Shown here piece by piece: positions 3,798 through 62,808 of a stretch of DNA of 64,000 nt. Below the pieces are notes generated by a model. The model was given only the letters and a program-made list of their open reading frames with translations. It did not search any database and was not told the origin of the DNA. Position 1 is the stretch's first letter, and each line of letters opens with the position of its first letter. Both the position numbers and the translations under genes were made by a program. The DNA comes from Octopus vulgaris (lineage: Eukaryota): assembly GCA_951406725.2 (NCBI GenBank), contig OX597815.1, forward strand, positions 136,896,001 to 136,960,000, given 5' to 3'.

Positions 3798-4022
3798 ATA
3801 TTTCTTTACTACCCACAAGGGGCTAAACATAGGGGGGACAAACAAAGGGATTAAGTCGATTACATCGACCCCAGAACGTAACTGGTACTTATTTTATCGA
3901 CCCCGAAAGGATGAAAGGCAAAGTCGACCTCGGCGGAATTTGAACCCAGAACACGTAACGGCAGACGAAATACGGCTACGCATTTCGCCCGACGTGCTAA
4001 CGATGCTGCCAGCTCGCCGCCT
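3798..4022 (-). mobile_element. SINE family A, well preserved, type-1 tail
   Basis: Reverse complement runs GGCGGCGAGCTGGCAG...GGGTTCAAATTCCGCCGAGGTCGAC...TTTAGCCCCTTGTGGGTAGTAAAGAAATA. Confidence 0.9.
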
Positions 4023-6681: not shown

Positions 6682-6721
6682 ACGTATAACGTATATGTCA
6701 ATGATTTTATTATTATTATTA

Positions 6722-7285
6722 TCATTGAATGAGAGAGCAGTACATGCCATCAAAGTGACACTGGGGTAAAATATACGAAGCCCAGCATCCCTATCATGAC
6801 TACTCGTCTGATAAGGGTACACCAGGCACATACATCACGACCATATGCGCGCGACATGGTCATCTCATATCAACATAAACAGCACATGACCTTGCAGGTG
6901 GGGCCCAGTTAGAATTTTCTTCTGGTCGACTAACCTACCCCGCTCAACAGGTCTCTGAATAAGGGTTATTTAAGGATGTTGAACGAAACACCCATGTTTC
7001 CAGAGGTGAATTATTCAAACCCGAAAGAATCCCTCTCAACACATGGCTATGATGCTCCCCAGTACTTCTGCTCATGATCACAGATGCGCATTTTGTCAGC
7101 TACTAAGGGACATGCTCAACTGGTTAAGGTCAAACAACTGACAAGCAAATCTGTGGTATTGAGCAGAATATTTGCTGTAGCCCATCTTTTAGACCAAGAC
7201 AAAACAAAGTACATGGATAACACTTCCAATCATTTGAGATCAGAAGCCATGAGAGCCACTGCCTGGTACTGCATCAGGGCATTTA
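6722..7285 (-). mobile_element. Non-coding interspersed repeat ending in an (AAT)n run; possibly a non-autonomous partner of R4/Dong
   Basis: Homologous to 62330-62790 and 1995-2125; abuts (ATT)n at 6707-6721; no ORF recognised; strand inferred from the tail. Confidence 0.65.
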
Positions 7286-7315
7286 TGGTACTGCATCGGG
7301 GCATTGGTACTGCAA

Positions 7316-8100
7316 TGGTTGCTCACCAAAGAATGTCCAGACGGCGGAGGAGGGTAGCGACTCCCCGCGTCTGTCGAAGCAGCCCCCTGTTCCCGCAGCC
7401 TCAAAAAGAATGAGGAAAAAGAGGAGCAGAGGACAGTCAGCGGATGTTCCTGGGCCGTAGACGGAGCCGCAGGTGGGATATGTGCCACCTGCGGATAGGG
7501 CTCCGTCAGTGGGAAGTGTGCCGCTGACGGAGCAGTTTGAGGTCCCTTCCTGTGAAGAGGAGGTGTTTCTCCTCCTTTACCAAGAGGGAGGGACGATGAA
7601 AAAATTTTTGGACGGCTTGGGTGATCGAGAACGTGCGTACTGGCTCTGCCCAAGTAGTCTGATATAGCCTCCGCAGGTGGATGCGGAGGTAGTAACGGAA
7701 ATATTTTGTCAAAGGTCACAGCGACCTTTGACCAGAAAGAATTTGCTTTCCTCTTTGCAGGCCCCGAATTGTTGTTGCAGAGTTGTCTGCAGGCGGCAAG
7801 TCACATTGCTTGGGGGACCTGACAAGGAGAATTGCTGTAAATCTATGTGCTACCCTTGTGGCAAATTAAATGAAATAAAGTAGCTTGTAAGAGGTTTTAG
7901 TGCCTCCTTCTTGTAAGAGGTTTGAAACCTTATATTGATTTTTAAAAAAAGAAAATGTTTTCGAGAGAAATCCAATCGGCGGGTGTTGGGTTTCGTCTCT
8001 CATTTATTCATTTTATTTAATTTTCATTCATTAATTTGTTTGTCCAGCCCGCAAAGCTACACAATCTTTGTACTGTCTATATGACAAATTTTATGAAACA
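7316..8100 (+). mobile_element. SINE-targeting ORF1-only retroelement, unit U1 (5'-truncated)
   Basis: Homologous to the 3' half of U4 (GGGATATGTGCCACC, CCTCCGCAGGTGGATGC) with the shared 3'UTR CAGCCCGCAAAGCTACAC...ATGAAA; followed by ATGTAGCTTGCTTAC at 8101-8115. Confidence 0.75.
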
Positions 8101-8115
8101 ATGTAGCTTGCTTAC

Positions 8116-9575
8116 GCATGCCTGTTTGTTAGTTGCTTATTGGATTGAACACTGTCAAGACGTGCGTTGGTGGCCGTCTTAAATCGAAGAACTGTTGAAA
8201 AGGCGCGAGTGCAAGGTAGGCACTTGTTTGAGGGGGGGCGGATTTCGTTAGGGATTTTGTTGTTTGATATTTTTTTCTTTTTTCAAATAAGTCCTCACTG
8301 GGTCTCGAACATTTGTATGCTGCAGTCGCGCTGAGTAACTCACCGGTGATAATTGTTTTCTTTTGGTGGGCGTATCTCGCAACCAAAATTTGAAAAGTTT
8401 ATAAAAATTCGACCTGCTACGGTGAACTGGATTACCTGTGTGAAGCAATATTATGGCGGATTACCTGTTGATTATTTGCTGATTACCTGTGGATTATTTG
8501 CAGATTACCTGCGGACCCGGATTACCTATGTGGCGGAATTGTGTTGCCGTAATGGAACTGTCTTCTGTTCTGTCTTTCTGTTCTTTGTGTTTCTTTGGAC
8601 TTTTATTTGAATATTTTGAACTTTTTGTTGAACATTTTCCTGTGTTTTTCTCTTGCAGAGCATGGCAAAAAATAAAAACACTGTCTTGGAGTGGGAAATT
8701 GTACCCTTCAAGCAGTGGGTAAAGGACCTTAATGAGAGAACGGTGGTGTTGAGGACATATTCCATGTCCCTCGACACCATCACTGTGTTCTCTCAAGTAG
8801 ATATTGAGAAGGAGTTGGCAGAATACCTGCCAACCATAAAGTTTATTGCAATTTGTCAAATATACAACAGTGTAGTTGCTATTTGATAGAACTGATGAGG
8901 CTCGCATTTTTGCGAGCCAGCCTCTGGAAGGGGAGAAAATTCTGTTTCTGCCCCCATATCGTGGGAGGAAATTAACAAGAATTTAGGGGTGTGTGCTGCC
9001 ACCCGGAGTAGAGCCCGAGTGGATAGAGGACACTATCCGCTGAGGTCTGGGTGGTAGCGGAGCCAAGCTCTTGAATGTTAAAATGATGCCTGCGGGTGAT
9101 TGGGTGGGGTCAAAAGCAGTTTTGAACCTGTAGACCCAATGAGCCGATGATCTGGTGTTCCTTTTTCTTTTTGGGGATGGCCGGGTACAGGTATCCAGTG
9201 ATCCTTGAGGGACGTCCTCCCCGAAGTGTCATCAGTGCCCGGTGCCTAGACAGAAGAACTGTCCCAAGGACCAGAGCAGGGTCCTGGAGCAGTTAGTTGT
9301 GGAAGAACCCCCTCCTCCTTCCGGAGGAGAGATGGAGGAAGAGAGTGACCTCCCAGTAAAAAAAGGGAGAAAAAGGAACAAGGGGAGCAACATTTTGGCT
9401 TTTTAAAAAACAACAATGTATTAGAGAAGCAAAATTCGGCAGGCGTTTTTCTCTTCTCCCATCAATATCCTGTTTTTTTTTCAACTGTTTTTTTTTCCTT
9501 ATTCATCTCATTAATGTTTCTGTCAAGCCCGCAAGCTACTCTTTGTAATGCCGTCAGGGCAAATTTGATGAAATA
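8116..9575 (+). mobile_element. SINE-targeting ORF1-only retroelement, unit U2
   Basis: Bounded by the 15-mer at 8101-8115 and 9576-9590; decayed ORF1; ends GAAATA directly into the SINE B sequence. Confidence 0.85.
8662..9275 (+). pseudogene. Disrupted L1/Tx1-like ORF1 (RRM-like region plus degenerate zinc knuckle)
   Basis: MAKNKNTVLEWEIVPFKQWVKDLNERTVVLRTYS...; PYRGRKLTRI..LPPGVEPEWI; YPVILEGRPP/KCHQC...KNCP; contains stops and frameshifts. Confidence 0.65.
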
Positions 9576-9739
9576 AAGTAGCTTGCTTACCAACAACGTG
9601 GCTCCGGGTTCAGTCCTACTGCGTGGCACCTTGGGCAAGTGTCTTCTACTATAGCCTAAGGCTGACCAAAGCCTTGTAAGTGGATTTGGTAGACGGAAAC
9701 TGGATGAAGCCCGTCGTATATATGTATATATATATATGA

Positions 9740-9780
<41 letters not shown>

Positions 9781-10000
9781 AATGTGTATGTATAAGTTTG
9801 TGTCTCTGTATGTCCCCCAGCATCGCTTGACACCCGATGCTGGTGTGTTTACGTCCCCGTAACTTAGCGGTTCGGCAAAAGAGACTGATAGAATATGTAC
9901 TAGGCTTACAAAGAATAAGCTCTGGGTCCGTTTTGCTCGACTATAAAAGACCGTGCTCCAGTATGTCCGCAGTCAAATGACTGAAAGTAATAGAGAGAGA
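9576..10000 (+). mobile_element. SINE family B, 3' remainder after the insertion site
   Basis: B box GGTTCAGTCC, TTGGGCAAGTGTCTT core, internal TA/TG tract, CAGTCAAATGACTGAAA tail; lacks the A-box part. Confidence 0.9.
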
Positions 10001-10346
10001 GTAAATATATGTTAATGTCCACTAGTGGCACAGAGAGACACGTTGTGGAGAGTGTAAATAGACCCCAGGACAAGATAGGTATATTATTTTATAGACTGGC
10101 CAACTACGTCTAAGGGATATTTAATCAGAAAATTATAATAAAATTGGTAGTAATTTATATTAAAACCCAATTCTTTCGGGATGTTGAAGTTGTGTATTCG
10201 TTTTAAACGGCAAGAATAATTAGCAGAGACGTATCTAACTAAAAGGACAAAAGTCAATTTCCTCGGGATTTGAACTCTTAATGAAGAGCATCATGTAAAA
10301 ATAGGAAAAGGATTTCTCTTTAAACTACTCCTTCTGTCCTCCTTTA

Positions 10347-14624: not shown

Positions 14625-14843
14625 ATTCTTGTTTGTCATTTGACTGCGGCCATGCTGGAGCCACCTTTAGTCGAGCAAATCAAACCCAGGACTTATTCTT
14701 TGTACATACATATATATATTTACGTCTAACAAATCCACTCACAAAGGTTTTGGTCGGCCCGAGGCTATAGTAGAATACACTTGCCGAAGATGCCACGCAG
14801 TGGGACTGTACCCCGAACCATGTGGTTGGTAAGCAAGCTACTT
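14625..14843 (-). mobile_element. SINE family B, 3' part (split by U3 and U4)
   Basis: Reverse complement of the SINE B body, ending at GTAAGCAAGCTACTT (14829-14843). Confidence 0.9.
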
Positions 14844-16571
14844 TATTTCATTGCATTTTCCATTAAGGCAGTACATAAAGTGTAGCTTTGCGGGCTAGAC
14901 AAGAACATTAATGAAGTAAATGATAATGAAACGAAGATAATAAGGATGGGAGAAGACAAAAAGCGCCCGCCGACTTTTGCTTCTCTAAAACATTGTTCTT
15001 CAGAAAAATACAAAATGATGCATTAAACCGCTTACAATAGTTTTTACGATTTAAAACACGTAGTTGGGGCAATAAACCTCTTACCACAGTTTCTACAATT
15101 TAAAACACATAGTTGAGGCAATTAAGTTCCTTCCTCCCCGACCAGGCTGTACGCTACAATAGGCACTGCTCCAGGTCCAGGTCGAGGCCCCGGAATGCAA
15201 ATCTGAACATTCCTTAGAGAAAGCTTCTATCACCCTGAACATACCGACATCCGATATGACCTTCATAGTCACCTGCGAATGCCAATCCTTGTCCTCTGTC
15301 CATGGCATGGGCTCCTCACTCCGGTCATCCAGCTACTCTACGAAGCTCTGTACTGTCCCGCCCTTCTACAAGAAGATGACAAACTCCTTTTTTCTCCTTC
15401 CAGGAGGGGCCGCTGTTTCCTCTGTCGGCGGCAGGCATCCCATCGACAAATTTCCGGGCATGCCTGCAGTTCACCATCAACCGCCGGCAATGTTCCATTC
15501 TTCTCCTTTTTTTTCGTTTCCGCTTTTCCTTTACGACGGGAGAGTGGACTTCCTCCGTCTTGTCTGGAAGTTCTTCTATTCCTTCCGCTGCCTCAGGATC
15601 CATTGATGGGCAACCATTGTTGCCCACCTTTCTTTTTCTCCCCTTCTTTTTTTATGGGGTTGCCTCCTCCTCGATTTCCTCCCTCTCTCCTTCCCATCCA
15701 ATGAGGGAGCAGGGGGCTCTTCTATTAACTTTTCCAGGACCTTTGCTTGGTGCCGGAGACAGTTTTTGTTTATGTGGCCCAATACCAGGCACAGGAAACA
15801 CTTGAGGGGAGCGGCGTCTCTTAAATATCACTAGGTGCCCGGAACAGGCCATTGTTAAAAATGGGAGAACACAGCTATGGTGTCGAGGGACGTAGAATAC
15901 GTCCTCAACACCACCGTTCTCGCATTAAAATTTTTTAGCCACTGCTTGGGAGCCAAAATTTGCCACTCCAATACAGTGTTTTTAGTTGTCATGATGACAA
16001 AACAGAGCAAATAAAAAATGCTCAAAATAAAAGTTCAAAAAAGTTTCAAATGAAAAATCAATAAGCAACTCAAAAAAAAAAGAACGGAAAGATAGAGCAA
16101 AGAACGAAGGAAGACAGTTCAATTGAAACACTATTCCGCCACTTAGGTAGTCCATACCAATGTAGGTTCGCCAACGCAGCACAAAAATATTCTAATTTTG
16201 GTTTCTCCCAGCTAAGTGAGACTTTAAACACAAAACACAGCGATTTTTCTGGCCGTCCCGGTACTTCAGGCCAATTGGTAATCCTCCTGGCGGAAATAGT
16301 TGGAAATAACACAATTTTCGGAGAGACACGCCTCTCAAAACAAACCTCTCACAACCAAGTGAGACTTTAAGCACGACCACTGGCAGACAAATGCATAGAA
16401 TCCAGTGGAGACCTCTTGTTCGACAAAGAATAAATAATACCAGCAACATAACCCCACTAGGTCCCAGAAAATCAGACATCTTACCTAGTAGTTGTGCTTC
16501 ACTATTTCTCGACGTTGACACTCACCGACGTGACTTCCACCGCGAAAAAAATGCGCCCTCTCTGTACTGAA
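14844..16571 (-). mobile_element. SINE-targeting ORF1-only retroelement, unit U3
   Basis: Flanked by GTAAGCAAGCTACTT at 14829-14843 and 16572-16586; ORF1 remnants NTVLEWQILAPKQWLKNFNARTVVLRTYS and KCFLCLVLGHINKNC (CCHC). Confidence 0.88.
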
Positions 16572-16586
16572 GTAAGCAAGCTACTT

Positions 16587-18085
16587 TTATTCATTGAATT
16601 TGCCATGTAGGCAGCATATAGATAAGGTAATTTTGCAGGCTGGACACAAACAGTGATGAGGCGAATGAGTATGATACAAAAATGATAAAGATGGGAGAAG
16701 ACAGAAAGCGCCCGCCGACATTCTGCTTCTCTAAAATATTGTTCTTTAAAAACGCATATACAGAGGCATTAACCCTCTTACAATTACAAATACAATATAT
16801 TTGGACTAAAAAGTCTATACAATTATAAAACACAATTTATACACAAAATGAAGACGATAAACCTCTACAATCCTTCTCCGAGTAATTTTCTTGCAACTTG
16901 CAGGCATTCATGCAACCGCAATCCGGGGCTCCACAAAAGAATTCTATAATTCTCGTTTTTACACGAGTCAGTTATAAGATCACAGTACTTTCTTTCCAGC
17001 ACCAGAGCATCCACCTGCGGAGGCCACTCTAGGCTGTCGATACAAGTCGGGTTTCCCAGGACCCGACTACCCATATTATTCTCAACGAAACTGTCAATAA
17101 CTCTTCCCCTGAGATAGAACATATATTCTTCATCACTTTCACTGGGAGGGGCCTCAACTCCCTCTCTCAGTGGCACACATCTCACTGACGAGGTTATCTT
17201 CTCCCCCCTCCGGTGGCACATATCCCACCGATGGAGTTTCGAGACATGCCGTTGCCAGCAATGCCCCGTTTTTCTTCTTTCTCTTCTTTTTTCCTTTTTC
17301 GACGGGAGGGTTGAGTTCCTCCGATATCTCTGGAGGATCCTCCCTCCCCTCGCCGTTTCAGGTCCATCGGCGGGCAACCATTCTTGCCCACCTTTTTTCT
17401 TTTCTTCCCTTTTGTTTTCGAGCAGGTTACCTCCTCCTCGACTTTTTCCTCCACTGGGGGAGCAGGGGACACCGTTTCAAAGAACTGTTCCAGGACACTT
17501 GCCTGGTCCCGGCAACAGTTCTTCTTTATATGGCCCGATTCCAGGCACAAGTAAGCCTTGGGGGAACGTTCCTCAACCATCACCGGGTAACTGGAACCGG
17601 CCATTGTTAAAAAATCTGGTAAAATCAGATCATCGGCTGATTGGGTCCGTAGGGTCAAAATTGTTTTTTGACCCGACCCAATCAACCGCAGGCAACATTT
17701 TTACATTTAAGAGCCTGGCAGCTCTTAAATAGTGTCTTCTATCCACTCGGCCTCTATACCGGGTGGCAGCCCACACACCCAGGCTCTGCTCAACTTTTCT
17801 ACAAACTCAGACATAGAAAATTCCAAAACATTTTCGAAGGGACACGCCTCCCAAAATAAACACAATTTTCACTTCGAAGTGAGTCTTCTTCCACAACCAC
17901 TGGCAAACAAATGCCTGGAACCCAGTGGAAACCCCGTTCGAAAAAATTCTTAAATACAAACAGCAAACCCCACTAAGGTCCCAAAAAAACAAATGCTTTA
18001 CCTGCGATCGTGCTTCAAATGTTCGGTTTTTCACGTACGACGTGACTTCCACCGCGACGAAAAACAACGCGACGACTTTGTAGCA
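16587..18085 (-). mobile_element. SINE-targeting ORF1-only retroelement, unit U4
   Basis: Flanked by the 15-mer at 16572-16586 and 18086-18100; ORF remnant YPVMVEERSPKAYLCLESGHIKKNC with basic/acidic C-terminal region. Confidence 0.88.
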
Positions 18086-18118
18086 GTAAGCGAGCTACTT
18101 ACCACACAGCCACTCCTG
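18086..18118 (-). mobile_element. SINE family B, 5' head (A box) displaced by the insertions
   Basis: Reverse complement CAGGAGTGGCTGTGTGGTAAGTAGCTCGCTTAC matches the SINE B heads at about 55045 and 55485. Confidence 0.88.
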
Positions 18119-18739: not shown

Positions 18740-19642
18740 TACTAGAGTGATAATATCGACTCCCTACACCCTTCAGAAACTCCAGGCGGCCCCAGGAGAT
18801 TTGGAGAGGATGGTGGAATCCATCTCAGTCGGAGAATATGTAAAGCTGAGTCTCATGGCGGGTGGCAGGACGCCCCGATGCTTTAAATGCGGCGAAAAAG
18901 GCCACATAAAGGCAGATTGCCCTCCACCTAGCACAAGGGCACCAAATGTGGAAACCGCACCTCAACCTCCTGCGCCGTTGTGTGTGTGTGAGGTGGAGCT
19001 GGAGAAGGGAGAAGGAAACCAAGAGGAATGGAGTGCACAAGCCAAAAAGAGAAAAGAGGAAAGAAAAGAACTGAGTGAAAAATGTGATCCCCCACCTGAT
19101 CCCTTGCTGTCCCACCATACCCTTGTAGTCAGAAACCCTCATCATGCACCCCTCCCCCTGACACAGAACTTGTACAGACATCACATACCCGAAATTCCCC
19201 AACTCCCTCCCCAAAAAATGTGTTACGCCATAATGTATAGCAATGCGAACAAAAAACTGAGAAGTGAAATAAAAAAAGAAAATAGACTCACCTGTATCGA
19301 TGGACGTGACGGAAGATAAAGGTTTACCCGAGAACTCCGGATGCGCCTGGTGAGTGAGGAGGAAATGAACGGTCTGATTAAAGAGTATGGTGCAAAAATG
19401 TTGGACCTAAGAATGGAAACTAAGTCAAGTAAGTTACCACCAATCGTGGACTTTAGTAACCTATATATTCATTGCTTAAAAAGGTTTAAATGAAGTCGCT
19501 AGGACGTCGGGTCGAGTGGCCTTCATTCCATTTCATTATTCATATTTTCCGTTCGTTTTTCCTTCATTGTCCCCACTTATATTTTTGTCTGGTCTTGTAT
19601 TGCCCCCTCTATTTTTATCCTCATGTGAGCAATAAAGAAATT
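18740..19642 (+). mobile_element. 5'-truncated ORF1-only retroelement U5 (distant relative of U1-U4)
   Basis: ORF 18747-19319 has an intact CCHC knuckle GRTPRCFKCGEKGHIKADCP; runs into a pyrimidine-rich 3'UTR and AATAAA (19631-19636) with no ORF2. Confidence 0.75.
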
Positions 19643-19998
19643 ACACTCTTCAAAAACTGCTATCACTGTGCCAACATTTGAAACCATTATTTCAAAATAA
19701 AGGTGACCAGGGGGTAGAAGTGTTAGCGCATTAGACAAAATGCTTTGCGACAAGTTTTCTGAAATCAAATTTCGCGAAATTCTTCTTCAGCATCATATAC
19801 GGGAAAAGGGAAGGCAACAAGTAGGTAAGCGGGTGCTTCGAACTGAATTGGTGTGTTTACACCTATACAAGTACAGCAAAACATTTTCTCCGTAACAAAA
19901 TAGTGAATGTCTTTCTTACGGTTTTGAATATGACTTACACATATCTAAAATAGTAAAAAGTTTGTATCACTGCTAAATGATTCTGTTACGAATATATA

Positions 19999-28403: not shown

Positions 28404-29105
28404 TAGTGTATTAGTGGGTCTGTTTCTGTTTTAATGTGTTTTGGTGTAATGTTAAAGAGAGCGGGGCCAATTGAGGTGAAATAATTGTGCCGTATTGTTG
28501 TTATGAGATGAGAGTGCGATTTTTGTTTTGGGCGGATGGCACGGGGCCCAAGCCTTGGATGTACCTTAAAGGTGATGCCAACATCATTTGGGCAATGCTG
28601 ATGGAATATTTTCCACATCATGCAGATGATGTAGCGCTCACGACGACGTTGGAGAGAATAAAGTTTTAGCTTTTCTAGTCGACCCCAATAGTCGAGGCCT
28701 GTCATGCCATCTATCTTTTTTGTGATTGCCCTTTGAGGTGCTTCAACTTTTATGATACTTTGTTTTGTGTGGGGAGACCACAGTGGACAACAGTATTCAG
28801 GGTGGGGTCGGGCAAAAGTGGAGAAGAGAAGGATAATTGTGTGGATATCTCTCGACTGGAAAGTTCTGAGAATCCAGGAACACATTCTGCGGGTCACGTC
28901 AACTTTGGTGTTTATATGAGTGGCCCAGCTTATGTTGTTGTCCACAATTACTCCCAAGTATCTGATGTTGTTGGATGCCACGAGAGTTTCACCTGAAGGA
29001 AGGGAGTATGGGAGTTTCAGGGCATCCTCTTTTCCAAAGTGGATTAACTCAAATTTATCCTCGTTCAACAGTATATTATTTTTTCTGCCCATTGGATAAC
29101 AGCCA

Positions 29106-29107
<2 letters not shown>
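28404..29107 (-). mobile_element. CR1-group LINE fragment, copy 3 (divergent sister family)
   Basis: [35 protein letters not shown]; (TA)n on both sides. Confidence 0.92.
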
Positions 29108-29354
<247 letters not shown>

Positions 29355-29461
29355 TTAGATAAAACTTAGATATGTTTCGACCAGAGATTGGTCCAGGCCA
29401 TGTCTAACTTAATAGCACCACCTGATAGGATTATTCGAATCCTGTTTAAGTCAAGTTTTGT

Positions 29462-32400
29462 TCAAGTAGTGAGTTCTTGTTGGGTGAGTTGTATCCAGTT
29501 TTGTTCAAGTAGTGAGTTCTTGTTGGGTGAGTTGTATCCAATTATGGGTGGCTTATCTGGTATTCTTTGAAGGAATCTATCCAGACTCTGTTTGAAGTTG
29601 ATGGGATCCTTTTCCTCTTTGATCTCCCTCGGGACAATGTTAAATAGGGCAGGGCCTGTTGAGGAAAAGAAATTATGTTGCAGTGTACATGTATGTTGTG
29701 ATCTTGAATTTGGCAGGGGACGTATACCGTGGTCCAAGTCTCGGATGAACCTTGAAGCTAATGTTTAGGTCGTTTGGGCAAAGTTGGCGGTATATTTTCC
29801 ACATCGTACAAATGATGTACCGCTCACGGCGACGCTGGAGGGAGTAAAGTTTCAAGGCTTTAAGGCGATCCCAATAATCGAGAGCAGCCATGCCTTCAAT
29901 TTGTTTAGTGAGAGCCCTCTGGGGTGACTCAATTCTGGAGATGTTTTGTCTTGTGTGAGGAGACCACAGTGGGCAGCAGTATTCAAGGTGTGGCCGTACA
30001 AAGGATGAAAAAAGTGGTATGATGACACCTTGTTCTCTGGACCGGAAAGTTCTTAAGATCCAGGAACTCATCCTACGAGCTGTATCGACCTTCTTGTTGA
30101 TGTGTGCACTCCAACTGAGATCGTCATCAACAATTACACCCAGGTCTCTGATATTGTTAGAGGCTGTGAGCGGTTCCCCTGAAGGAAGAGAGTATGGTTG
30201 TTTTAGTGAGGAATTTCTTCCAAAATGCATCAGCTCAAATTTTCCCTCATTCAGTTGCATTTTGTTTCTGTCTGCCCATTGACTCACAGCATATAGGTCA
30301 GACTGGAGTTGAGTTCGGTCTGCTTCTTCATTGACGATTTGCTGGAGCTTAGTGTCATCAGCGAATATTTTCACTTTGCAGTGATGTACGACACTGGAAA
30401 GGTCGTTTACATAAATTATGAAGAGTAGCGGACCCAAAACAGTTCCCTGGGGAACACCGCTGGTGACTTTTGCTGGGTTTGAGTGGACTCCATCAACTAC
30501 AACATGTTGTGTTCTATTCGCTAGGAAATACTGAATCCAGTGTAGAACTTTTCCACGGATTCCAACATTTGCCAATTTTGAGAGTAGGATGTTATGGTCT
30601 ACCCTGTCGAACGCTTTACTGAAGTCAAGGTATATGACGTCAGAGTTCGAACCTGTTCCCAAGGCTTTGAGTACATCTTCAATGTGGTGTAAGAGCTGTG
30701 TTAGACAGTCCCTGCCACAGCGAAAGCCATGTTGATTTGAATTTAGGAGTTTGTGGGTCTCCAGGAAGTCAGCTATCCTTGATCTTAACACTCTTTCAAA
30801 CACTTTAATGATGTGGGAGGTGAGTGAGATTGGGCGATAGTTGACTGCGAGGGATCTGTTTCCCTGTTTGAAAACCGGGATGACCGACTGGGATAGAAAC
30901 TTTTTCGGTATATAACCTGCGTCTAACGAGTTTCTCCAGAGGTTGGTCAGAGGGACTGCAAGTTGATATCTACATTCCTTCAGGAGACTGGCGGGAAATC
31001 TATCAGGGCCTACAGCGGAGTAATGTTTGACCTCATTTATTGCTGCTACGATGTCGGTGGCAGTGAAGGTTATGTCTGCGATTTTGTGTTGGGAGTCAGC
31101 TTCGTTCGTTTCCCTCACATCAATATCAGTGGGAACACTGAAGACAGAGCAATATTGTTTCTGCAGTATTTCTGCCATTTCTTTAGCATCGTGTTGGGGA
31201 ATGCCGTTTTCATCAATCAATGGCCCAATAGGTGAGACAGTGGTTCTATGCTTATTTGCATAAGAATAGAACACTTTTGGGTTCTGTTTGATGTTTTTGA
31301 TTACCCATTGTTCCTCCACAGCTCTTTGATTTTCAATGGAGGTTTTCATGTTAGTCTGCAGATGAAGTTTTTCCAGCTCTAGTCTTTTCATTGTTGTTGA
31401 ATGTGGATGTTGCGTGTGGGAATATTTTAATTGGTTGATTTTTTTGTTGAGTCTTTTGATGCGCCTGATGAGTGTTTTTTTCTTTTTAGGGAGCCGGTTT
31501 CTGTTTGTGTTAGTAGATTTCTTGGGAGCGTGTTTAGAGCATGTGTCGGTGACAATGGTTTCAAAGTGCTGCCACGCGGTCTCAATATGAGGGGAATTGA
31601 GAGTAAAAGACCAGTCGATGGAAGACAGATCCTTTCTGATTGTTCCCCAGTCCGCTTTGTGGAAATTTATGTTGTCAAATGGGTGCCATGGAGTGGGATT
31701 GGCTGGTTTGGTTTTTATACGTCGGGAATTAAGATTGCAGAGTACCATGTCGTGGTCTGAGAGGAGAGTTTTTTCGACTGAAATGCTGTGAACGTAGCTA
31801 GAGTGATTGGTCAGTACCAGATCCAAGATCGTTTTATTCTGTCTCGTTGGTTCAAGCACTAGCTGAGTCAGGAAATACTCATCCATCAGATTAAAGAGCA
31901 GTTCTGCTGCTGCCCTATCTGATGTAGAGCACTTGCCTAACTTCGGAGTATTTGTGGGCCAGTTCACATGAGGGAGGTTAAAATCACCCATCACTATTAT
32001 GTTTCCGGAGTGGTACTTCCGAAGGAAGGACTTGACTTTGCTAAGGCACTCTTCAAAGTACTTTAGAGGTGCCTGGGGAGGCCTGTAAAGACCAACAATG
32101 GTTATGTCCTTGGCTTTGTTGTATACTGATACCGATTCACAGTAGCCATTGGAAAATGTGTCCTTGGCATCAAGTGAAAAGGAGTCATGGATAAAGATGG
32201 CTGTCCCTCCCTTATTTCGGTCTGTGCGATCCGCACGAACAATGGTGAAATCTTTTATTTTCACCTCTGCGTCCATATGGGTGTTGTTCAGGTGAGTCTC
32301 GGTAAGGATAAAGAAAGGGAAGCAATGTGCCATTTCGGCAAGCCAACTCTCTATATATGGGATCTTCCATTTTTGGGCAATAATTGATGGGTTGATGCCA

Positions 32401-32468
32401 CGTACATTTAACAGGAATGTCGAGGTAAGGGAAGTTGGTAATGGGTGAGTGGTCCTTGTGATTTGCAT
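29462..32468 (-). CDS. LINE ORF2: apurinic-like endonuclease + reverse transcriptase, one frameshift near 29730
   Basis: LNVRGI, LTETHL, GLYRPP, MGDFNLP, LDLVLTN, SDHD (APE); YRPISLTS, YLDFSKAFD, GVPQGTVLGP, FADD (RT); C-terminus continues in ORF 29462-29737. Confidence 0.93.
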
Positions 32469-33678
32469 AGATGGTTGGTGATGGCTCGCTGGATCTCCTG
32501 GCTTAGGTCGGCCTTCATATTTTCCAGGTATGTCAGTAAAAAAGAGTTACTTGTTTGGTTTGCCACTTGGTCAGAGGATACATATTTCAAGTTGGCGTTA
32601 TTTGGTGTTTTTTCCTGGTTCTGTCTACGTAGTTTGATTGTAGGAGGGGAAACGTGGTTGTATTTTGTTCTTGTTGTTGTCCTAGATTTCCTCTGTTCCT
32701 GTTCATATCTATTCTGTGATCGTTTTGTGCCCTTCAGATGGTGGTTGTTGCATTCTGGGTTCAGGCACATCCTTTGTGAGACAGAAGTTTGGCACAGTTT
32801 AGGATGGAATAAGGTGCATCCATTGCCTCTTATGCATCCGTATTTAGGGTCAGAACCATAGATTCTGTATTTAGGACAGTATTTGGGGTGGAGGTGGGGG
32901 CAATTTTTTCCTGTTATACCGTATGGACAGGTGCCCATAGCAAGTCTACGACATAAGGTCGGGTGGGGAAAAGCACAGCGTCCATTTTTGTTTGTGCCGC
33001 TGGGGCCAAATCTACAAGTGCCTTTAGAATAGTAACGGCAGGGGTTTTATTTGGTTGTAGTAGTGGTTTTTCTATTTTGGCAGTAGTAGTAGTGGTGGTG
33101 GTGGTGGTGGTGTTAGAAGCAGCTTGTTGATTTTGTGATGGTGGGTTCTGGCTTGCCAGTATGTGGTCAAATCTGCAGCTGCCTTGAGAGTAGTAGTGGC
33201 AGATGGTTTTACGCGGATGTAGTAGTGATTTTCCTATTGTGGCAGTAGTGGGGAGTTGTAGCAGCATTGGAACTTGACTAGTGGTAGTATTAGAGTGTTG
33301 TTGTTGTTGTTTTTGTTGCTGTAGCGAAGGTGAGACTTGACTTGGTTCATCAGGTGCTGTTGTCAATGGAAGTAGGTCAGTTGATTGTTGCTGTTGAAGT
33401 GACCACTGACCTGTTGGGATTTGGTCATTTGTTGTACTGGATTCGTTGGCAAGAATGGCTTTTAGTGTAGCCATGTGCGCGTGAAAAATAGGGAATATCC
33501 TAACAATTTCTTTTAATTTATTTTCTATCTGTTTTACAGATCTGTGAAAGGATTTTTTCGTTAAATCCTCAGTTATTTTGCTATAAACATTAGCTTCGTT
33601 GTGATGGATGAACCAAGCGTTAATCATTGCAGTAATTTCATTTTCAACCCAGCGGCGTTTTTGAAAATTATTGGCCAT
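32408..33678 (-). CDS. LINE ORF1: Myb/SANT-like N-terminus, Q/T-rich linker, tandem CCCH-type zinc fingers; one frameshift near 33042
   Basis: MANNFQKRRWVENEITAMINAW...RSVKQIENKLKEI; CHYYSQGSCRF; after the shift CRYYSKGTCRFG...CAFPH, CRRLAMGTCPYG...CPHLH, CPKY...GCIRGNGCTLFH. Confidence 0.8.
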
Positions 33679-34246
33679 ATTCAGTGGGGTAGTGTTGTGT
33701 AATATATATATGTATGTATGTGTATGCGTGTGTATGTATGTGTACACCAGTTATTGATGGCTTGATGTAAAATAGTGAACACACTGTTGAAAAGTTTGTG
33801 TCGATATACTCGGTAAATAGTGAATACACCGTTGGAAAGTTTGTGTCGATATACTCGGAAATTCGTGGCTTGTGTGTGTGAGAGTTCAGTGTAATTAGTA
33901 CAATCTAATTAGTACAATCGGGATGAGCGGTGTGTTTGATACAGACCAAGAAAAAAGAATTGTACTCACGGGACTAGTTTTAGAACTAGTCTTGGGTTTA
34001 GTATTTAGTTTTGGGTTGTTCCTCTTTCTTCAGGTTGTATATAGATTTGTATAAATTTATCCTCCGATGGTAGTAAAAGAGTAGTATAGTAGGATTGTAG
34101 AGTTCAAAAGTCTTGAGATTAAAGACAAGGAGAGATTATGTTAGCTTGAGTTGAGTTGAGTTGAGTTAAATTGAGTTGAAAAATGCTTCTTTGGTTAGTT
34201 ACTGACGGGAGCTATAAAAAGTACGTCTTGTCACGACGACTGCCTG

Positions 34247-38668: not shown

Positions 38669-38726
<58 letters not shown>

Positions 38727-39921
38727 CATATACGTATATATAATGTATGCATTATGTGGTCGGTTGAGCTGAAAATATGCAGACCTATGTTAAAAGTGCT
38801 GGCAAGTTTGCATGACAACTATTTTTTTCCTCAAATGAAGCGCGTGACCTCTAGGACAAAATTCCTCATCTTATAAAATGTGGCCCCAGTAGACCCGAAT
38901 GAAATCGGGTTATATTAACCAAAATGTGAAAAGGGGTCTAAATGGGACTGGAAAGGGATTAAAATTTAAAGGAGCGGGTGTTTAGGAATTCTCTGTTACA
39001 TCAAGCTAAAAAATTTGCGCCAGCCTTTTAATCGTCAATGTGTTGCCGTCCATGATGAAGAAGTTTTGAATGCTTGCCATGGTGAGTCTACTGTCGTGAG
39101 AAAGAATCACTTCAAAACTTGGTGTTTACGAATTTTCTTTTACATCAAGCTCAAAATTTTACGCCAGCCGTTAAACTGTCAATACGTTGCTGTCCGTCGT
39201 TAAGAAATGCCAGCCATTGTGACTCTACTATCCTCAGATTCTATCCCTTCAAACTTTGGTTTCCAATATTTTATTATTTTTATTCAGCACGCAAGTTCGT
39301 CTGTCCCTTTTAAATGTTAGTGTTTTGCTGTCTGCCTTGAAGCAGACCTTTCCGTTGTTACTGCCTGATATTTATGATTGATCTTTCTAAATATTTTATT
39401 TCTCAACTTACTCAAGATCTTTTGTTGTTTATAAATGGGAGAGAGATAAAGATAGAGAGTAAGAGAAAGCGAGGAAGAGTCCGAGATAAAGGAAGAGTAA
39501 GAGAGTGGGGAAAGTGAGAGAGAAAGGAGAGAGAAACAAAGAGGGAGAATCATCATCATCGTTTAACGTCCGTTTTGCGTGCTAGCACGGGTTGGACAGT
39601 TTGACCGGGGTCTGGGAAGCCAGGAGGCTCCACCAGGCTCCAGTCTGATCTGGCAATGTTTCTACAGGTGGATGCTCTTCCTAACGCCAACCATTCCAAG
39701 AGCGTAGTGGGTGCTTTTTTCGTGCCACCGGCACAGGTGCCAGGGGGGCTGGCAGCGGCCACGATCGGTTGGTGCTTTTTACGTGCCACCGGCACAGAAG
39801 CCAGTCAAGGCGACACTGCAATCGGTCATGTTCGGATAGCGCTTTTTACGTGCTGAAAGGAAGCAACAGAAAGTAACAACCACACTCTTACCCGCGCGTA
39901 GAGCGGGTCACCTTCAGATAG
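37993..39921 (+). mobile_element. Non-autonomous Helitron unit H1 (5' about 90 bp missing)
   Basis: Homologous to 40013-41904; 3' hairpin ACCCGC-gcgtaga-GCGGGT then ATAG (mutated CTAG). Confidence 0.75.
39549..39855 (-). mobile_element. Retroposon (SINE-like) 3' end with (GAT)n tail inside the Helitron; second copy 41524-41838
   Basis: CATCATCATCGTTTAACGTCCG...GGATGCTCTTCCTAACGCCAACC at the same position in both units. Confidence 0.7.
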
Positions 39922-40665
39922 TCTATATATAAAACTGAAATGCGTTTGGACCTTTGGATCGCTTTCAAGGCCACTACAACCCGTCGGATCGACTCCAAAA
40001 TTTACAGGGACATGTAAAATGAGGTGACGATGCCCGTGGGCTACCTTAGAAATCCCTATCTTAAAAGGTGTCGTTGCTAGGGCCAAAAACCCGCTTTGAC
40101 AAGTCCACTCCCATTCTTTTACGTATCTGTCTTCCTCACTCACGCTATTTCCTCCATTCCCCTCTAACTCCCCTTCAGTTTCCCTTTATAAGTTCGTCAA
40201 ACGGCGTTCTTTATCTCGCTGTCTGCGTTCATAGAGAGAATTATCATCGCCACAAACAACACACAATCATGAGAACAAATATTATGAATCAGATATTTCT
40301 TGCGTTCATTTATATATGTGTGTGTGTGTGTGTGTGTGTTCTATATATAAATATGTATATATAATGTATATATACAAAGTGTATATATCTATATTTATGT
40401 ATATTAAACTTTTTAATACTTTTTCATAGTTATATATATTTTTAAACAAATTATAAATATACTTTAATAATTTTTATTTTAAATTTAAATAATTTAAATT
40501 TTTCAATTTTATATATTTTCTATATTATATTTTTATTTTTATGTTTTTGTTTTTGGTTTTTCTCTGTTTGATTTGCCTATTAGTGGTTTTATCTCTAATT
40601 TAATTCATACATATATATATATAAAATTTGTATACATTTGTATATATAATGCGTGCACACACACG

Positions 40666-40713
<48 letters not shown>

Positions 40714-41904
40714 CACACACACATATTGTCGGTCGGTTCAGCTGAAAATACGCAGACCTATGTTAAAAGTGCTGGCAAGTTTGCATGACAACTATTTTTT
40801 CCTCAAATGAAGCGCATGACCTCTAGGACAAAATTCATCATCTTATAAAATGTGGCCCCAGTAGACCCGAATGAAATCGGGTTATATTAACCAAAATGTG
40901 AAAAGGGGTCTAAATGGGGCTGGAAAGGGATTAAAATTTAAATGAGCGAGTGTTTAGGAATTCTCTGTTATATCAAGCTAAAAAATTTGCACTAGCCTTT
41001 TAATCGTCAATGTGTTGCCGTCCATGATGAAGAAGTTTTGAATGCTTGCCATGGTGAGTCTACTGTCGTGAGAAAGAATCACTTCAAAACTTGGTGTTTA
41101 CGAATTTTCTTTTACATCAAGCTCAAAATTTTACGCCAGCCGTTAAACTGTCAATACGTTGCCGTCCGTCGTTAAGAAATGACAGCCATGATGACTCTAC
41201 TATCTTCAGATTCTATCCCTTCAAACTTTGGTTTCCAATATTTTATTATTTTTATTCAGCACGCAAGTTCGTCTGTCCCTTTTGAATGTTAGTGTTTTGC
41301 TGTCTGCCTTGAAGCAGACCTTTCCGTTGCCACTGCCTGATATTTAGATTGATCTTTCTAAATATTTTATTTCTCAACTTACTCAAGACCTTTTGTTGTT
41401 TATAAATGGGAGAGAGATAGATAAAGATAGAGAGTAAGAGAAAGCGAGGGAGTGTCCGAGAGAAAAGAAAAGTAAGAGAGTGGGAAAGTGAGAGAGAAAG
41501 GAGAGAGAAACAAAGAGGGAGAATCATCATCATCATCATCATCATCATCGTTTAACGTCCGTTTTCCGTGCTAGCACGGGTTGGACAGTTTGACCGGGGT
41601 CTGGGAAGCCAGGAGGCTGCACCAGGCTCCAGTCTGATCTGGCAATGTTTCTACAGGTAGATGACCTTCCTAACGCCAACCACTCTGTAGTGGGTACTTT
41701 TTTCGTGCCGCCGGCACAGGTACCAGGGGTGCTGGCAGCGTCCACGATCGGTTGGTGCTTTTTACGTGCCACCGGCACAGAAGCCAGTCAAGGCGGCGCT
41801 GCAATCGGCCACGTTCGGATGGTGCTTTTTACGTGCTGAAAGGAAGCCACAGAAAGTAACAACCACACTCTTACCCGCGCGTAGAGCGGGTCACCTTCAG
41901 CTAG
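39922..41904 (+). mobile_element. Non-autonomous Helitron unit H2 (complete)
   Basis: Starts TCTATATATAAAA; ends with hairpin 41873-41891 and CTAG|T at 41901-41905. Confidence 0.82.
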
Positions 41905-41943
<39 letters not shown>

Positions 41944-53057: not shown

Positions 53058-53472
53058 ATTGGTGAGCTGGCAGAATCGTTAGCACCCCAAGCGAAATGCT
53101 TAGCGGTATTTCGTCTGTCTTTACGTTCTGAGTTCAAATTCCGCCGAGGTCGACATTGCCTTTCATACTTTCGGGGTCGATTAAATAAGTACCAGTTACG
53201 CACTGGGGTCGATATAATCAACTTTATCCGTTTGTCTGTCCTTGTTTGTCCTCCCTGTGTTTAGCCTCTTATGGGTAGTAAAGAAATAGGTATTTCGCCT
53301 GTCTTTACGTTCTGAGTTCAAATTCCGCCGAGGTCGACTTTGCCTTTCATCCTTTCGGGGTTGATAAATTAAGTACCAGTTACGCACTGAGATCAATGTA
53401 ATCGACTTAATCCCTTTGTCTGTCCGTGTTTGTCCCCTCTATGTTTAGCCCCTTGTGGGCAATAAAGAAATA
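53058..53472 (+). mobile_element. SINE family A head followed by two tandem 184-bp bodies with type-1 tails
   Basis: Units 53105-53288 and 53289-53472 both start GGTATTTCG and end TAAAGAAATA. Confidence 0.9.
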
Positions 53473-54777: not shown

Positions 54778-55040
54778 CACATACAGAGAGAGAAAACCTC
54801 GAAACAAAATTTCTTACACACTACAAACTCTCCTTTTCTGTCTCTCTCTCTTTCTCTCTCTCTCTGTCCAAGCATTTCGCCCAGCATGCTAATGATTCTG
54901 CAACCTCGTCACGTTAGTCACTCTTAATAATAAAACAAAAAAACTACCACACTACAACTATGCAACATACACTCAACGAATACACACTCACAGAGAAATA
55001 CACACGGTATACACAAATATCTTGTTAAATTGTTTGCATA

Positions 55041-55202
55041 GGCGTAGGAGTGGCTGAGTAGTAAGTAGCTTGCTAACCAACCACATGGTTCCGGGTTCAG
55101 TCCCACTGCGTGGCATCTTGGGCAAGTGTCTTCAGCTATAGCCCCGGGCTGACCAATGCCTTGTGAGTGGATTTGGTAGACGGAAACTGAAAGAAGCCTG
55201 TC

Positions 55203-55276
<74 letters not shown>

Positions 55277-55477
55277 TTGTGTGTCTGTGTTTGACCCCCT
55301 AGCACTGCTTGACAACCGATACTGGTGTGTTTACGTCCCCGTCGTTCGGCAAAAGAGACCGATAGAATAAGTACTGGGCTTACAAAGAATAAGTCCTGGG
55401 GTCGATTTGCTCGACTAAAGGCAGTGCTCCAGCATGGCCGCAGTCAAATAACTGAAACAAGTAAAAGAGTAAAGAGT
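55041..55477 (+). mobile_element. SINE family B, full length and uninterrupted
   Basis: GGCGTAGGAGTGGCTGAGTAGTAAGTAGCTTGCTAACC...B box...internal TA/TG...GTAAAAGAGTAAAGAG. Confidence 0.93.
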
Positions 55478-55481
55478 AATA

Positions 55482-55870
55482 TGCGTAGGCGTGGCTGTGT
55501 GGTAAGAAGCTTGCTTACTACCAGATGGTTCAGGGTTCAGTCCCACTGCGTGGCATCTTGGGCAAGTGTCTTCTACTATAGTCCCTGGGCGGCCAAATCC
55601 TCCTGGGTGGATTTGGTAGATGAAAACTGAAATAATCCCGTCATATATATATGTGTGTGTGTGTGTGTTGTGTGTCTGTGTTTGACCCCCACGCATACTG
55701 TCGCTTGACAACCGATGTTGGTGTGTTTATGTCTCCGTAACTTAGCAGTTCGGCAAAAGAGACCGATAAAATAAGTACTAGGCTTACAAAGAATGAGTCA
55801 TGGAGTAGATTTCACCGACTAAAGGTGTTCTAGCATGGCCGCAGTCAAATTACTGAAACAAATAAAGGAA
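55482..55870 (+). mobile_element. SINE family B, second tandem copy
   Basis: GCGTAGGCGTGGCTGTGTGGTAAGAAGCTTGCTTAC...CAGTCAAATTACTGAAAC. Confidence 0.92.
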
Positions 55871-60439: not shown

Positions 60440-62050
60440 GTCAAGTCACAACAAGTACCTCAGATGGACAGTACTTTATGCAGTTCTTAGTAAAGCTGAT
60501 TTTCGCAATGTACCTACATTGTAGGGTATTTCTAAAGCTTCCAGATGTTTCTTCATGTTGGGTGGTATTGAATCTAATGCTCTGATGACAACAAGGACAA
60601 ACTTTATGCATGGCTGTCGTAGCTGCCACATGTTGGCGATCTCAATTTTCAGATCTCTATATTTATCAACCTTTTCTTTTTTTCTCATGGCAATATGTTG
60701 ATATCACTGCACTGCCACGTCGATTATTAGGTACTCTTGTTTATTACTCCTAAAGATTACTATATCCGGCTTATGGTGGTCTAATGCTTGTCTGTATGGA
60801 AGTCAAATTCCCAGAGGATCTTTGCCTTCCTGTTTTCGTCCATTACCTTCTCCGATTTATGTTGGTACCAAGCACCCGTTACCTCTTATCCATACTTCTG
60901 GTAGCCTGAATAGGTTTTACGCTACCTTGTCGTGTCTGCGCAAGACTTTCAGAAGCACAAATAATGTGTCACGCTTTGGACCGTCTTCCCATACGTTTTC
61001 CAGAGGATCTTTGCACTTGTGTGGTATATACCTCTTTTCACTGAGCTGGTATTCAATGCCTAATCCTAGGCAACAATGATTAGGCTTTCAGTCTTCTTTT
61101 TAAGGTCATCTATGCTGATCCACACCCATGATGCCTCCTGGTCTTTTCAGTTGTTAGTTTCATGGTGGAACTAGCCATGTAATCCCATGTGGAGTAGAGT
61201 CTCTTCTCTCTCTTTAACTATTCGTGATGGGAATTCATTAGCACTCTCAGGTCCATTGCTAGTAAATCCTTTTGCATTAGCGACATACAGTAGCAGGTCT
61301 TGCTTGTTGCCTACCAAATATTCTGCCATGTTTTTTATTTCATTGATGATGCCCTTCCTTAAACTAATCATGTCACATCCACCTTTACACCTCTTCATGT
61401 AGAGCCTTTCTAAGTTCACATTAGGGTGGAGGGTACTATGCATTGTCAGTGTCTTTCGAGTACTACGATCGAGCTGGTCAATCTCCTCTCATGCCCATTT
61501 CAGAATGTATGCACTATAGCGGATTACAGCAACAGCCCATATGTCGATGGCAGTCACAAGTTTCCTTGCTTTGAGTTTTTACTTCAAGCGAAGTGTGAGG
61601 CGCTTTAAATATGTAGTAATGACCTTGTCTTTCATTTTTCTGAGCAAGGTATTGTACAGCTCCAGAATCCAGACGTTCATATAACTATCAGCATCCGGGT
61701 CTTCCATTCGCTGTCCGTTTCACAGTTCTATGTCCCTACAATCTGCCCGTTTCCCCACGTTTCGTAGTGAGCACCGCACACTTTGAGAAAGCGGAATCAA
61801 GGCTATAACACATAAAAAAGGTAAACAAAATTCTCCCTGGAAGATACATCTTTTGATTGTTATGTCGGCTAAGTGCTAAATGTTAGAGAAAAGATGTGTT
61901 TTCCAACTAGGTGTGCTTTCCTTAACCAGCGCATACACGTTCTCAGCAATTCCACAAATGCCAGGTGTTTCCCAAATCCAATAATGCGACAACATATCGT
62001 AAACCTTTTTATAGGTTATCCATGCCATGCACAAGTCTTTTGGTATCGTT
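60440..62050 (-). mobile_element. Degraded R4/Dong-type LINE (RT to restriction-like endonuclease)
   Basis: LCMAWITYKKVYDMLSHYWI; LHPNVNLERLYMKRCKGG; EKVDKYRDLKIEIANMW; abuts a long (AAT)n run. Confidence 0.8.
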
Positions 62051-62790: not shown

Positions 62791-62808
62791 ATTATAATTA
62801 TTATTATG

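What the first reader, a model, noticed from the sequence alone, without database searches (positions are those of the whole stretch)
7316..10000. Second independent array at the same SINE nucleotide, opposite strand
U1 - ATGTAGCTTGCTTAC (8101-8115) - U2 - AAGTAGCTTGCTTAC (9576-9590) - SINE B body. The insertion point and the orientation relative to the SINE match the 14.8-18.1 kb array. U2 has a different 5' end with GGATTACCTG repeats, so several subfamilies share one target. This is the in-window replication of target specificity. The SINE head is missing because U1 is truncated against the repeat ending at about 7285.
Basis: seen in the sequence. Interest (0 to 1): 0.8.

Follow-up and report, generated by a model that had tools for sequence, protein, structure and literature searches.

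The report
Retroelements stacked inside an octopus SINE
At two places in this stretch of octopus DNA, copies of a small defective jumping gene sit at exactly the same position inside another short jumping element, stacked head to tail, which suggests a parasite that targets another parasite.

Summary
U1 – motif (8101-8115) – U2 – motif (9576-9590) – SINE body has the same insertion point and sense orientation as the minus-strand array at 14.8-18.1 kb. The 15-mer occurs 8 times (≤1 mismatch; 0.01 expected): 5 at unit junctions, 3 in empty SINE heads. All 5 termini join the same SINE position, and no unit sequence occurs elsewhere in the window. The flanks are unrelated. Positional partners differ by 24% and 31%, the host SINEs by 17%, so one duplication is unlikely. 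The units are decayed ORF1-only non-LTR elements: knuckle-bearing ORF, 60-70% identical to an Octopus sinensis protein, no ORF2, no poly(A). Best reading: a non-autonomous element, probably mobilised by a Tx1-clade partner (not found), inserts just after the SINE's A box and duplicates 15 nt, which rebuilds the target. Targeting other transposons and ORF1-only elements are both known; a SINE target was not found in my paper searches. The evidence is two loci only; empty orthologous sites were not tested.

The parts
6716..7311 (-). Unrelated common repeat abutting the array; ends in 2.5 copies of a 22-bp unit; joins U1 over a CA microhomology. Left boundary approximate.
   Evidence: (89-90% to 62338-62787)
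7312..7832 (+). U1, 5′-cut part: C-terminal part of ORF1 (basic region, then a ~90-aa C-terminal domain, one frame with 2 stops)
   Evidence: (59% to U4)
7833..7877 (+).
   Evidence: (75-82% to the four other termini)
7878..7887 (+). First 10 nt of the target motif (short duplication, or read-through target sequence)
7888..8100 (+). U1b: 3′ UTR with TTGTAAGAGG repeats and unit 3′ end, no poly(A)
8101..8115 (+). 15-nt target motif, 1 mismatch
8116..9575 (+). U2: 5′ UTR (8116-8661, GATTACC repeats 8430-8526); ORF1 residues 1-246 (ATG 8662 to ~9391; 5 stops, 3 frameshifts); internal deletion at ~9391/9392; 3′ end
9576..9590 (+). 15-nt target motif, perfect
9591..10003 (+). Host SINE body with B-box-like motif, internal microsatellite and tail; head absent
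14628..14828 (-). Array 2 host SINE body (middle deleted)
14829..14843 (-). 15-nt target motif, perfect
14844..16571 (-). U3: lacks ORF1 residues ~44-169, keeps knuckle, C-terminal domain and 3′ UTR
16572..16586 (-). 15-nt target motif, perfect
16587..18085 (-). U4: lacks part of the 5′ UTR and ORF1 residues ~1-102, keeps knuckle, open C-terminal domain (17143-16868) and a ~280-nt 3′ UTR
18086..18100 (-). Head-side target motif, 1 mismatch
18101..18118 (-). Array 2 SINE head with A-box-like motif, now 3,300 nt from its B box (42-43 nt in empty copies)
55040..55480 (+). Uninterrupted reference copy of the host SINE (other empty copies at 20666, 47590, 55483)

Best explanation
The units are copies of a ~2.1-kb non-autonomous non-LTR retroelement (5′ UTR, one ORF1 of ~420 aa, ~300-nt 3′ UTR, no ORF2; sizes pieced together from overlapping copies). 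It inserts at one fixed position of an abundant SINE head, just after the A box, in the SINE's sense. SHOWN: the common junction, 15-nt direct repeats (three for two units in the complete array), the orientation, the ORF1-only anatomy, and unrelated flanks. INFERRED: (1) The endonuclease and RT of an autonomous partner, most likely Tx1 clade, act in trans; the bottom strand is nicked opposite GGT/AAG and primes reverse transcription; a second nick 15 nt away makes the duplication. (2) The duplication rebuilds the target, so later insertions from other subfamilies stack in tandem. (3) The AATAAA hexamer straddles the junction, so transcripts would run 10-30 nt into the target; this read-through could pair with the nicked primer and explain exact joints without poly(A), as described for R1Bm. 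(4) The two arrays arose separately in two SINE copies and then decayed. Insertion separates the A and B boxes and should inactivate the host SINE.
For: Motif: 8 matches against 0.01 expected. 5 of 5 unit 3′ ends join motif position 1, within a 1-2 A ambiguity. No unit DNA or protein match lies outside the two arrays. Empty SINEs show the uninterrupted target once. Units are 60-70% identical in protein to O. sinensis XP_029652367 (P0007; E 1.3e-27). The Atlas places P0007 with RRM/CCHC clusters (feature score 0.92; TM 0.55 to a cluster with zf-CCHC in 59% and RRM_1 in 10% of members; a lead). ORF1 runs into a ~280-nt 3′ UTR in U4; U1 and U3 are collinear with it; no RT is present. Units are more divergent than their hosts. 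There is a modest coding-constraint signal between units: 67 of 166 mismatches at third positions, p 0.034; dN/dS 0.36-0.48 in a protein-guided alignment that overstates it. AATAAA spans 4 of 5 junctions. Precedents: tandem SINEU-3 insertions sandwiching a TSD in Mariner-N4_AMi, and Tx1 families that target transposons (PMC4494074). L1-Tx1 covers 56.3 Mb in 80 families in O. vulgaris (PMC13282606 supplement).
Against: Only two loci were seen, in one window. No autonomous partner was found; the window's APE+RT LINE at 29.7-32.5 kb shares nothing significant with the units. Clade cannot be set without RT, and RRM+CCHC ORF1s occur in several clades. Sequence alone cannot tell a true TSD from a motif carried on the element's own 3′ end. 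Pfam knuckle scores for the family are below cut-off (E 0.058-0.13), and both AlphaFold models were unusable (pLDDT 38 and 42). The U2/U3 excess over host divergence is marginal (p 0.046), and within arrays it is not significant (U3/U4 p 0.11, U1/U2 p 0.43). The trees are unresolved.
Confidence: 0.8

Rival explanations
1. One ancestral SINE-plus-units composite was copied, by inverted segmental duplication or by retrotransposing as one piece, so the shared site reflects one old insertion.
For: The arrays lie 5 kb apart in opposite orientation. The U2/U3 N-terminal ORF block (16.7%) and 3′ end (19.0%) differ about as much as the host bodies (14.7-19.8%).
Against: No flank homology. U1/U4 differ by 31%. 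U2's first ~100 nt do not match U3's. U2/U3 show 29 indels in 626 nt against 2 in 190 for the hosts. Each host body is as close or closer to empty copies at 20.7 and 55 kb (10-12%) than to the other (14.7%). Even a duplication needs at least two divergent units to reach the same position.
Confidence: 0.06
2. Specificity comes mainly from homology: the element's RNA carries the 15-mer as its own 3′ end and anneals at SINE heads broken or nicked by a less specific enzyme, and arrays may form in one event by RT jumping from one RNA to the next.
For: A head+motif | unit+motif | unit+motif | body parse gives the same sequence. There is no poly(A), and AATAAA straddles 4 of 5 junctions. The extra terminus at ~7833-7887 carries 10 nt of motif and is bounded by a TGTAA repeat, as a patch copied from a read-through RNA would be.
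Against: Neighbouring units differ by 21-22%, so one event would need co-packaged RNAs of different subfamilies. A 10-nt duplication with TTG microhomology at a truncated 5′ end is ordinary for target-primed insertion (general knowledge). Sequential insertion is the published reading of the equivalent SINEU-3 tandems.
Confidence: 0.1
3. The units are remnants of another class: gag of an LTR element, a target-specific DNA transposon, or autonomous LINEs that each lost ORF2 after insertion.
For: A CCHC knuckle also occurs in gag. One hit (P0008) is a gene model that joins the N-terminus to an integrase domain. Every unit has a large deletion.
Against: No long terminal repeats or inverted ends appeared in the self-comparisons, and the duplication is 15 nt. 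In P0008 only ~45 residues match, so it is probably a chimeric model (inference). U1, U3 and U4 share the same short ORF1-end-to-3′-end layout, which three separate losses of ORF2 would not give.
Confidence: 0.04

Closest known systems
Tx1-clade target-specific LINEs (Xenopus Tx1 into Tx1D; crocodilian Tx1-Mar into Mariner-N4_AMi; Keno into U2) and SINEU-3 (PMC4494074; passages and sections 14-15 read)
   Same: Fixed site in a multicopy sequence; a duplication of similar length (16 nt for SINEU-3); tandem copies sandwiching the duplication; non-autonomous riders share the target.
   Different: Here the target is the promoter region of a SINE head and the rider encodes ORF1. No Tx1 ORF2 was found, so the clade is inferred.
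ORF1-present non-autonomous LINEs: HeT-A (Jockey), HAL1 (L1), Ag-Sponge (CR1) (PMC5786205; passages read)
   Same: One ORF1-type protein, no RT, presumed mobilisation in trans. HeT-A also forms head-to-tail arrays at a fixed kind of site (recalled).
   Different: That list names no Tx1-derived member. HAL1 has the mammalian type II ORF1 and a poly(A) tail (recalled); HeT-A adds to chromosome ends (recalled).
R1Bm (via PMC7265360 passages; the original paper was not available)
   Same: Downstream target sequence on the RNA is needed for accurate reverse transcription; this is the model for the read-through step proposed here.
   Different: R1Bm is autonomous and targets 28S rDNA. Read-through here is inferred only from the AATAAA position and the lack of poly(A).
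tRNA-gene-targeting elements (NeSL-1_TV, LIN15_SM, LIN25_SM in PMC4640811; Dada DNA transposons in PMC8869645; passages read)
   Same: Exact insertion inside a tRNA-type sequence.
   Different: They hit true tRNA genes and use a restriction-like endonuclease or a DDE transposase; neither is seen here.
Octopus sinensis LOC115225585 (XP_029652367-9; P0007)
   Same: Same ORF1, 60-70% identical, uninterrupted over 281 aa.
   Different: Annotated as an uncharacterised gene and lacks the C-terminal domain of U1, U3 and U4; its flanks could not be read.

Membership tests
Tx1 clade | ORF2 with AP endonuclease and RT that groups with Tx1 | not testable with these tools
   Units have no ORF2 and no partner was found.
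Tx1 clade | Type I ORF1 (RRM plus CCHC knuckle) | tested here: inconclusive
   CX2CX4HX4C visible in U3 and U4; Pfam below cut-off; Atlas neighbours RRM/CCHC. Type I is not exclusive to Tx1 (PMC5203782).
Tx1 clade | Preference for one multicopy target (>20% of flanks, PMC4494074) | tested here: met
   5 of 5 termini at 2 loci in this window; not tested genome-wide.
Non-LTR retrotransposon | Direct repeats at both ends, fixed 3′ end, variable or truncated 5′ end, no terminal repeats | tested here: met
Non-LTR retrotransposon | 3′ poly(A) or short-repeat tail | tested here: not met
   0 of 5 junctions have a tail; the feature is common but not universal (general knowledge).
ORF1-present non-autonomous LINE | ORF1 only, followed directly by the 3′ UTR | tested here: met
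   U4 stop to 3′ end 279 nt; U1 and U3 collinear.
ORF1-present non-autonomous LINE | Shares ends or ORF1 with an autonomous LINE of the same genome | not testable with these tools
   No genome held; P0007 had no other relative among 684 candidates.
HAL1 | Mammalian L1-type ORF1 (Transposase_22) | tested here: not met
   No such Pfam match.
tRNA-derived SINE (host) | tRNA-like head with A and B boxes | tested here: inconclusive
   A- and B-box-like motifs 42-43 nt apart, judged by eye; no ARAGORN or Rfam tRNA match and no significant fold.
Octopus OR1/OR2/OK SINEs (host) | Sequence match to the published families | not testable with these tools
   Only the citation and the name OR2 were seen.
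Segmental duplication | Homologous unique flanks and uniform divergence | tested here: not met
LTR retrotransposon or Dada-type DNA transposon | LTRs or a DDE transposase; short TSD | tested here: not met
   None found in the units; duplication is 15 nt.

The most novel reading that the evidence does not exclude
Octopus harbours a lineage of ORF1-only hyperparasites that silence SINEs by splitting their Pol III promoter, guided partly by target sequence read through into their own RNA, and the SINE is evolving away from them. In this window both occupied SINEs have a perfect 15-mer and all 4 empty ones carry a change; two of these, 97% identical to each other, share the same T-to-A (Fisher p 0.067). 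A second ORF1-only family at 18782-19642 sits in another SINE family and shares its last ~60 nt with that family's alternative tail. Targeted insertion may therefore also be how octopus SINEs gain new LINE tails.
Probability: 0.2. Interest if true: 0.75.

Novelty: new variant of a known kind. Interest (0 to 1): 0.52.

Why it matters
SINEs are about 12% of the O. vulgaris genome (PMC13282606). An element that uses their promoter region as its landing site gains a very large harmless target and should disable the copies it hits. It would add SINE heads to the known targets of site-specific non-LTR elements and probably add Tx1 to the clades that yield ORF1-only derivatives. It makes testable, by counting in existing assemblies, whether SINE subfamilies escape such parasites and whether targeted insertion supplies SINE tails. 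It also flags an 'uncharacterised' O. sinensis gene model as a probable retroelement ORF1. The second array is what turns one nested insertion into evidence of specificity.

Tried and rejected
No whole genome is held for the window. Public runs were listed for 14.0-18.7 kb (11 of 24 rows hold a part, none half of the words; no RNA holder listed), but laying them gave no result, so they are not evidence and empty orthologous sites remain untested. Exact scans for a 23-nt junction found 0 matches in metagenome and in viral contigs, as expected for animal DNA. A word-indexed search with the U4 knuckle frame found 0 of 740 candidates. The profile search of 1.84 billion representatives returned 12 hits: P0007 plus 11 short or repeated-stretch matches that I did not open. 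The Atlas search of the C-terminal domain gave only scores under 0.9. PDB sequence search had no hit below E 0.7. Two AlphaFold models were too poor for a fold search. The five-sequence MAFFT alignment misaligned the deleted regions and was replaced by pairwise comparisons. Trees of four 3′ ends and six SINE bodies were unresolved. The dS values (0.7-0.8) ignore transition bias and were not used for dating. The window's APE+RT LINE was rejected as partner. The C-terminal domain did not align with a 57-aa stretch of the 18.8-kb element. A splice origin for U3's deletion (GT...AG-like ends) was considered; microhomology explains it as well. Three look-ups of earlier scan findings returned nothing. 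Anzai 2005 and Bao & Jurka 2010 were not held.

Full report
Observation. With up to one mismatch the 15-mer occurs 8 times in the window, against 0.01 in shuffles. Five copies are unit junctions in the two arrays and three lie in uninterrupted SINE heads; a fourth empty SINE at 47.6 kb has a degenerate motif. Array 2 is complete on the minus strand: head, motif, U4, motif, U3, motif, body. In empty copies the A-like and B-like boxes are 42-43 nt apart; in array 2 they are 3,300 nt apart. The boxes were judged by eye; ARAGORN and Rfam find no tRNA.

At about 7833-7877 there is a further unit 3′ terminus, 75-82% identical to the other four, followed by the first 10 nt of the motif (7878-7887) and then a 3′ UTR. 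Two parses fit. In the first, U1a (with its 3′ UTR deleted) and a 5′-truncated U1b are separate insertions, joined over a TTG microhomology. In the second, one U1 carries a patch bounded by a TGTAA repeat. I cannot separate them and lean about 60:40 to separate insertions. Either way 5 of 5 termini join the same SINE position, within a 1-2 A ambiguity, none has a poly(A) tail, and AATAAA straddles 4 of the 5 junctions. No unit DNA or protein match lies outside the arrays in 64 kb.

What the units are. An alignment of the U2 and U3 N-termini found two Octopus sinensis proteins among 24 candidates; this is my basis for calling the host an octopus. P0007 (XP_029652367, 281 aa) aligns to U2 over residues 1-246 (70% identity, 5 stops, 3 frameshifts), to U4 over 103-280 (64%) and to U3 over 6-43 and 170-280 (68%, 60%). 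It has a degenerate CCHC knuckle, below the Pfam cut-off; the Atlas puts it beside RRM/CCHC clusters, which is a lead, and my own folds failed. U1 continues in one frame from the basic region into a ~90-aa C-terminal domain also present in U3 and U4. That domain ends 279 nt before U4's 3′ end, and U1 and U3 are collinear with U4 there, so the lack of ORF2 is a family trait. Pieced together by overlap, the element is about 2.1 kb with a ~420-aa ORF1. No copy is whole; each has a different large deletion or truncation.

Independence. The flanks share only short low-complexity matches. With one aligner, the host bodies differ at 32/190 sites (16.8%, 2 indels), U2/U3 at 150/626 (24.0%, 29 indels, p 0.046), U1/U4 at 142/455 (31.2%, p 0.00014), U3/U4 at 170/765 (22.2%, p 0.11) and U1/U2 at 21/101 (20.8%, p 0.43). 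Each host is as close or closer to empty copies at 20.7 and 55 kb as to the other. Against this reading, the U2/U3 N-terminal block differs by only 16.7%, both trees are unresolved, and U3 and U4 are marginally each other's closest pair. Coding constraint between units is modest: 67 of 166 mismatches fall at third positions in unguided blocks, with frames assigned by hand (p 0.034). The guided dN/dS of 0.36-0.48 is biased downward. I conclude that distinct subfamilies entered two different SINE copies. The independent sample is two loci.

Mechanism. Shown: fixed 3′ junction, 15-nt direct repeats, sense orientation and ORF1-only content. Inferred: target-primed reverse transcription by a partner's ORF2 in trans, with a bottom-strand nick opposite GGT/AAG and a second nick 15 nt away. 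The duplication restores the site, so arrays grow one unit at a time. Because AATAAA lies at the very end, cleavage 10-30 nt downstream (general knowledge) would leave target sequence on the RNA, able to pair with the primer. R1Bm is said to need downstream target sequence for accurate reverse transcription (PMC7265360 passage). Sequence alone cannot tell a true duplication from a motif carried on the RNA; the two may act together. Confidence in the overall model is 0.8; in the read-through step about 0.4; in a Tx1 partner about 0.7.

Comparison with what is known. Most target-specific families fall among early-branched, Tx1 and R1 elements (PMC4640811 passage). Tx1 families target DNA transposons, LTR elements, snRNA genes and microsatellites, and the non-autonomous SINEU-3 forms tandems sandwiching a 16-nt duplication (PMC4494074, passages and sections 14-15). 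ORF1-only elements are listed from Jockey, L1 and CR1 (PMC5786205 passage). Type I ORF1 variants in non-mammalian animals are said to be consistent with Tx1 (PMC5203782 passage). L1-Tx1 is abundant in O. vulgaris, with 13 recently active families (PMC13282606 passages and its one listed supplement). So this works like Tx1-Mar/SINEU-3 with HeT-A/HAL1-type content; membership of Tx1 is untested.

Novelty. Of my ten paper searches, five bore on this question. Their listings, and the passages read in PMC8967140, PMC4758252 and PMC8869645, showed no element targeting a SINE head and no report of this family. The library lacks Repbase Reports and most subscription papers, and other supplements of PMC13282606 may exist that were not listed, so prior annotation is quite possible. 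I rate it a new variant of a known kind.

Bolder reading. Both occupied SINEs have a perfect 15-mer and all 4 empty copies carry a change (2 of 2 against 0 of 4, p 0.067); two empties that are 97% identical share the same change. A second, unrelated knuckle-ORF element at 18782-19642 sits between 16-nt near-direct repeats in another SINE family and shares its tail with that family's alternative form. These hint at SINE escape and at tail donation by targeted insertion, on very few copies.

Unexplained. U1's 5′ start and the left edge of U2's deletion fall at the same CA|ATGG position, just after a purine-rich tract. This could be a breakpoint hotspot, an RNA cleavage or start site, or chance.

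Verdict. Interest 0.52: clean anatomy and a directly testable claim, limited by two loci, no partner and no orthologous empty site.

Noticed in passing
window 18766-19658 (+): A second, unrelated ORF1-like element (zf-CCHC E 1.5e-6), 5′-truncated, with no ORF2 apparent. It lies between 16-nt near-direct repeats (18766-18781, 19643-19658) inside a second SINE family. Its last ~60 nt match SINE tails at 53224-53287, 53415-53471 and 3800-3845 (74-83%).
   Followed up: partly
window 20671, 47590, 55063, 55504: All four empty host SINEs carry a change in the 15-mer; the copies at 20.7 and 55.06 kb (97% identical) share the same T-to-A.
   Followed up: partly
window 7312-7313 and 9391-9392: U1's 5′ start and U2's deletion edge coincide at the same element position.
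   Followed up: partly
window ~8213-8222; U3 ~16485; U4 ~18000: An AG|GTA splice-donor-like site sits at a matching 5′ UTR position in U2, U3 and U4, and U2 has a pyrimidine tract plus CAG just before its ATG. P0007 has three RefSeq accessions for one protein, which may reflect UTR splice variants.
   Followed up: no
3′ UTRs of U1, U3, U4: Short TTGTAAGAGG/TGGTAAGAGG repeats resemble the target's TGGTAAG; U3 has a 49-bp tandem repeat there.
   Followed up: no
window 29100-33750 (-), with relatives at 22.6-24.3, 25.3-27.0, 28.5-29.1 and 56.9-59.2 kb: LINE with a 957-aa endonuclease+RT frame and an upstream Myb/SANT-like frame; five copies at 67-94% identity; not related to the units.
   Followed up: partly
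window 53061-53472 and 55040-55869: Head-to-tail dimers of each of the two SINE families; the second copy at 53289 starts mid-head.
   Followed up: no
window 6716-7314 and 62338-62794: The repeat abutting U1 recurs at 62.3 kb in permuted order between long (TTA)n/(ATT)n tracts; a Penelope-like layout is my guess.
   Followed up: no
window 38673-39931 / 40656-41914: Direct duplication of ~1.26 kb at 92% identity.
   Followed up: no
P0008 (XP_029639579): O. sinensis gene model joining ~45 residues of this ORF1 to an integrase-like domain and to a piece matching window 61177-61329; probably chimeric.
   Followed up: partly
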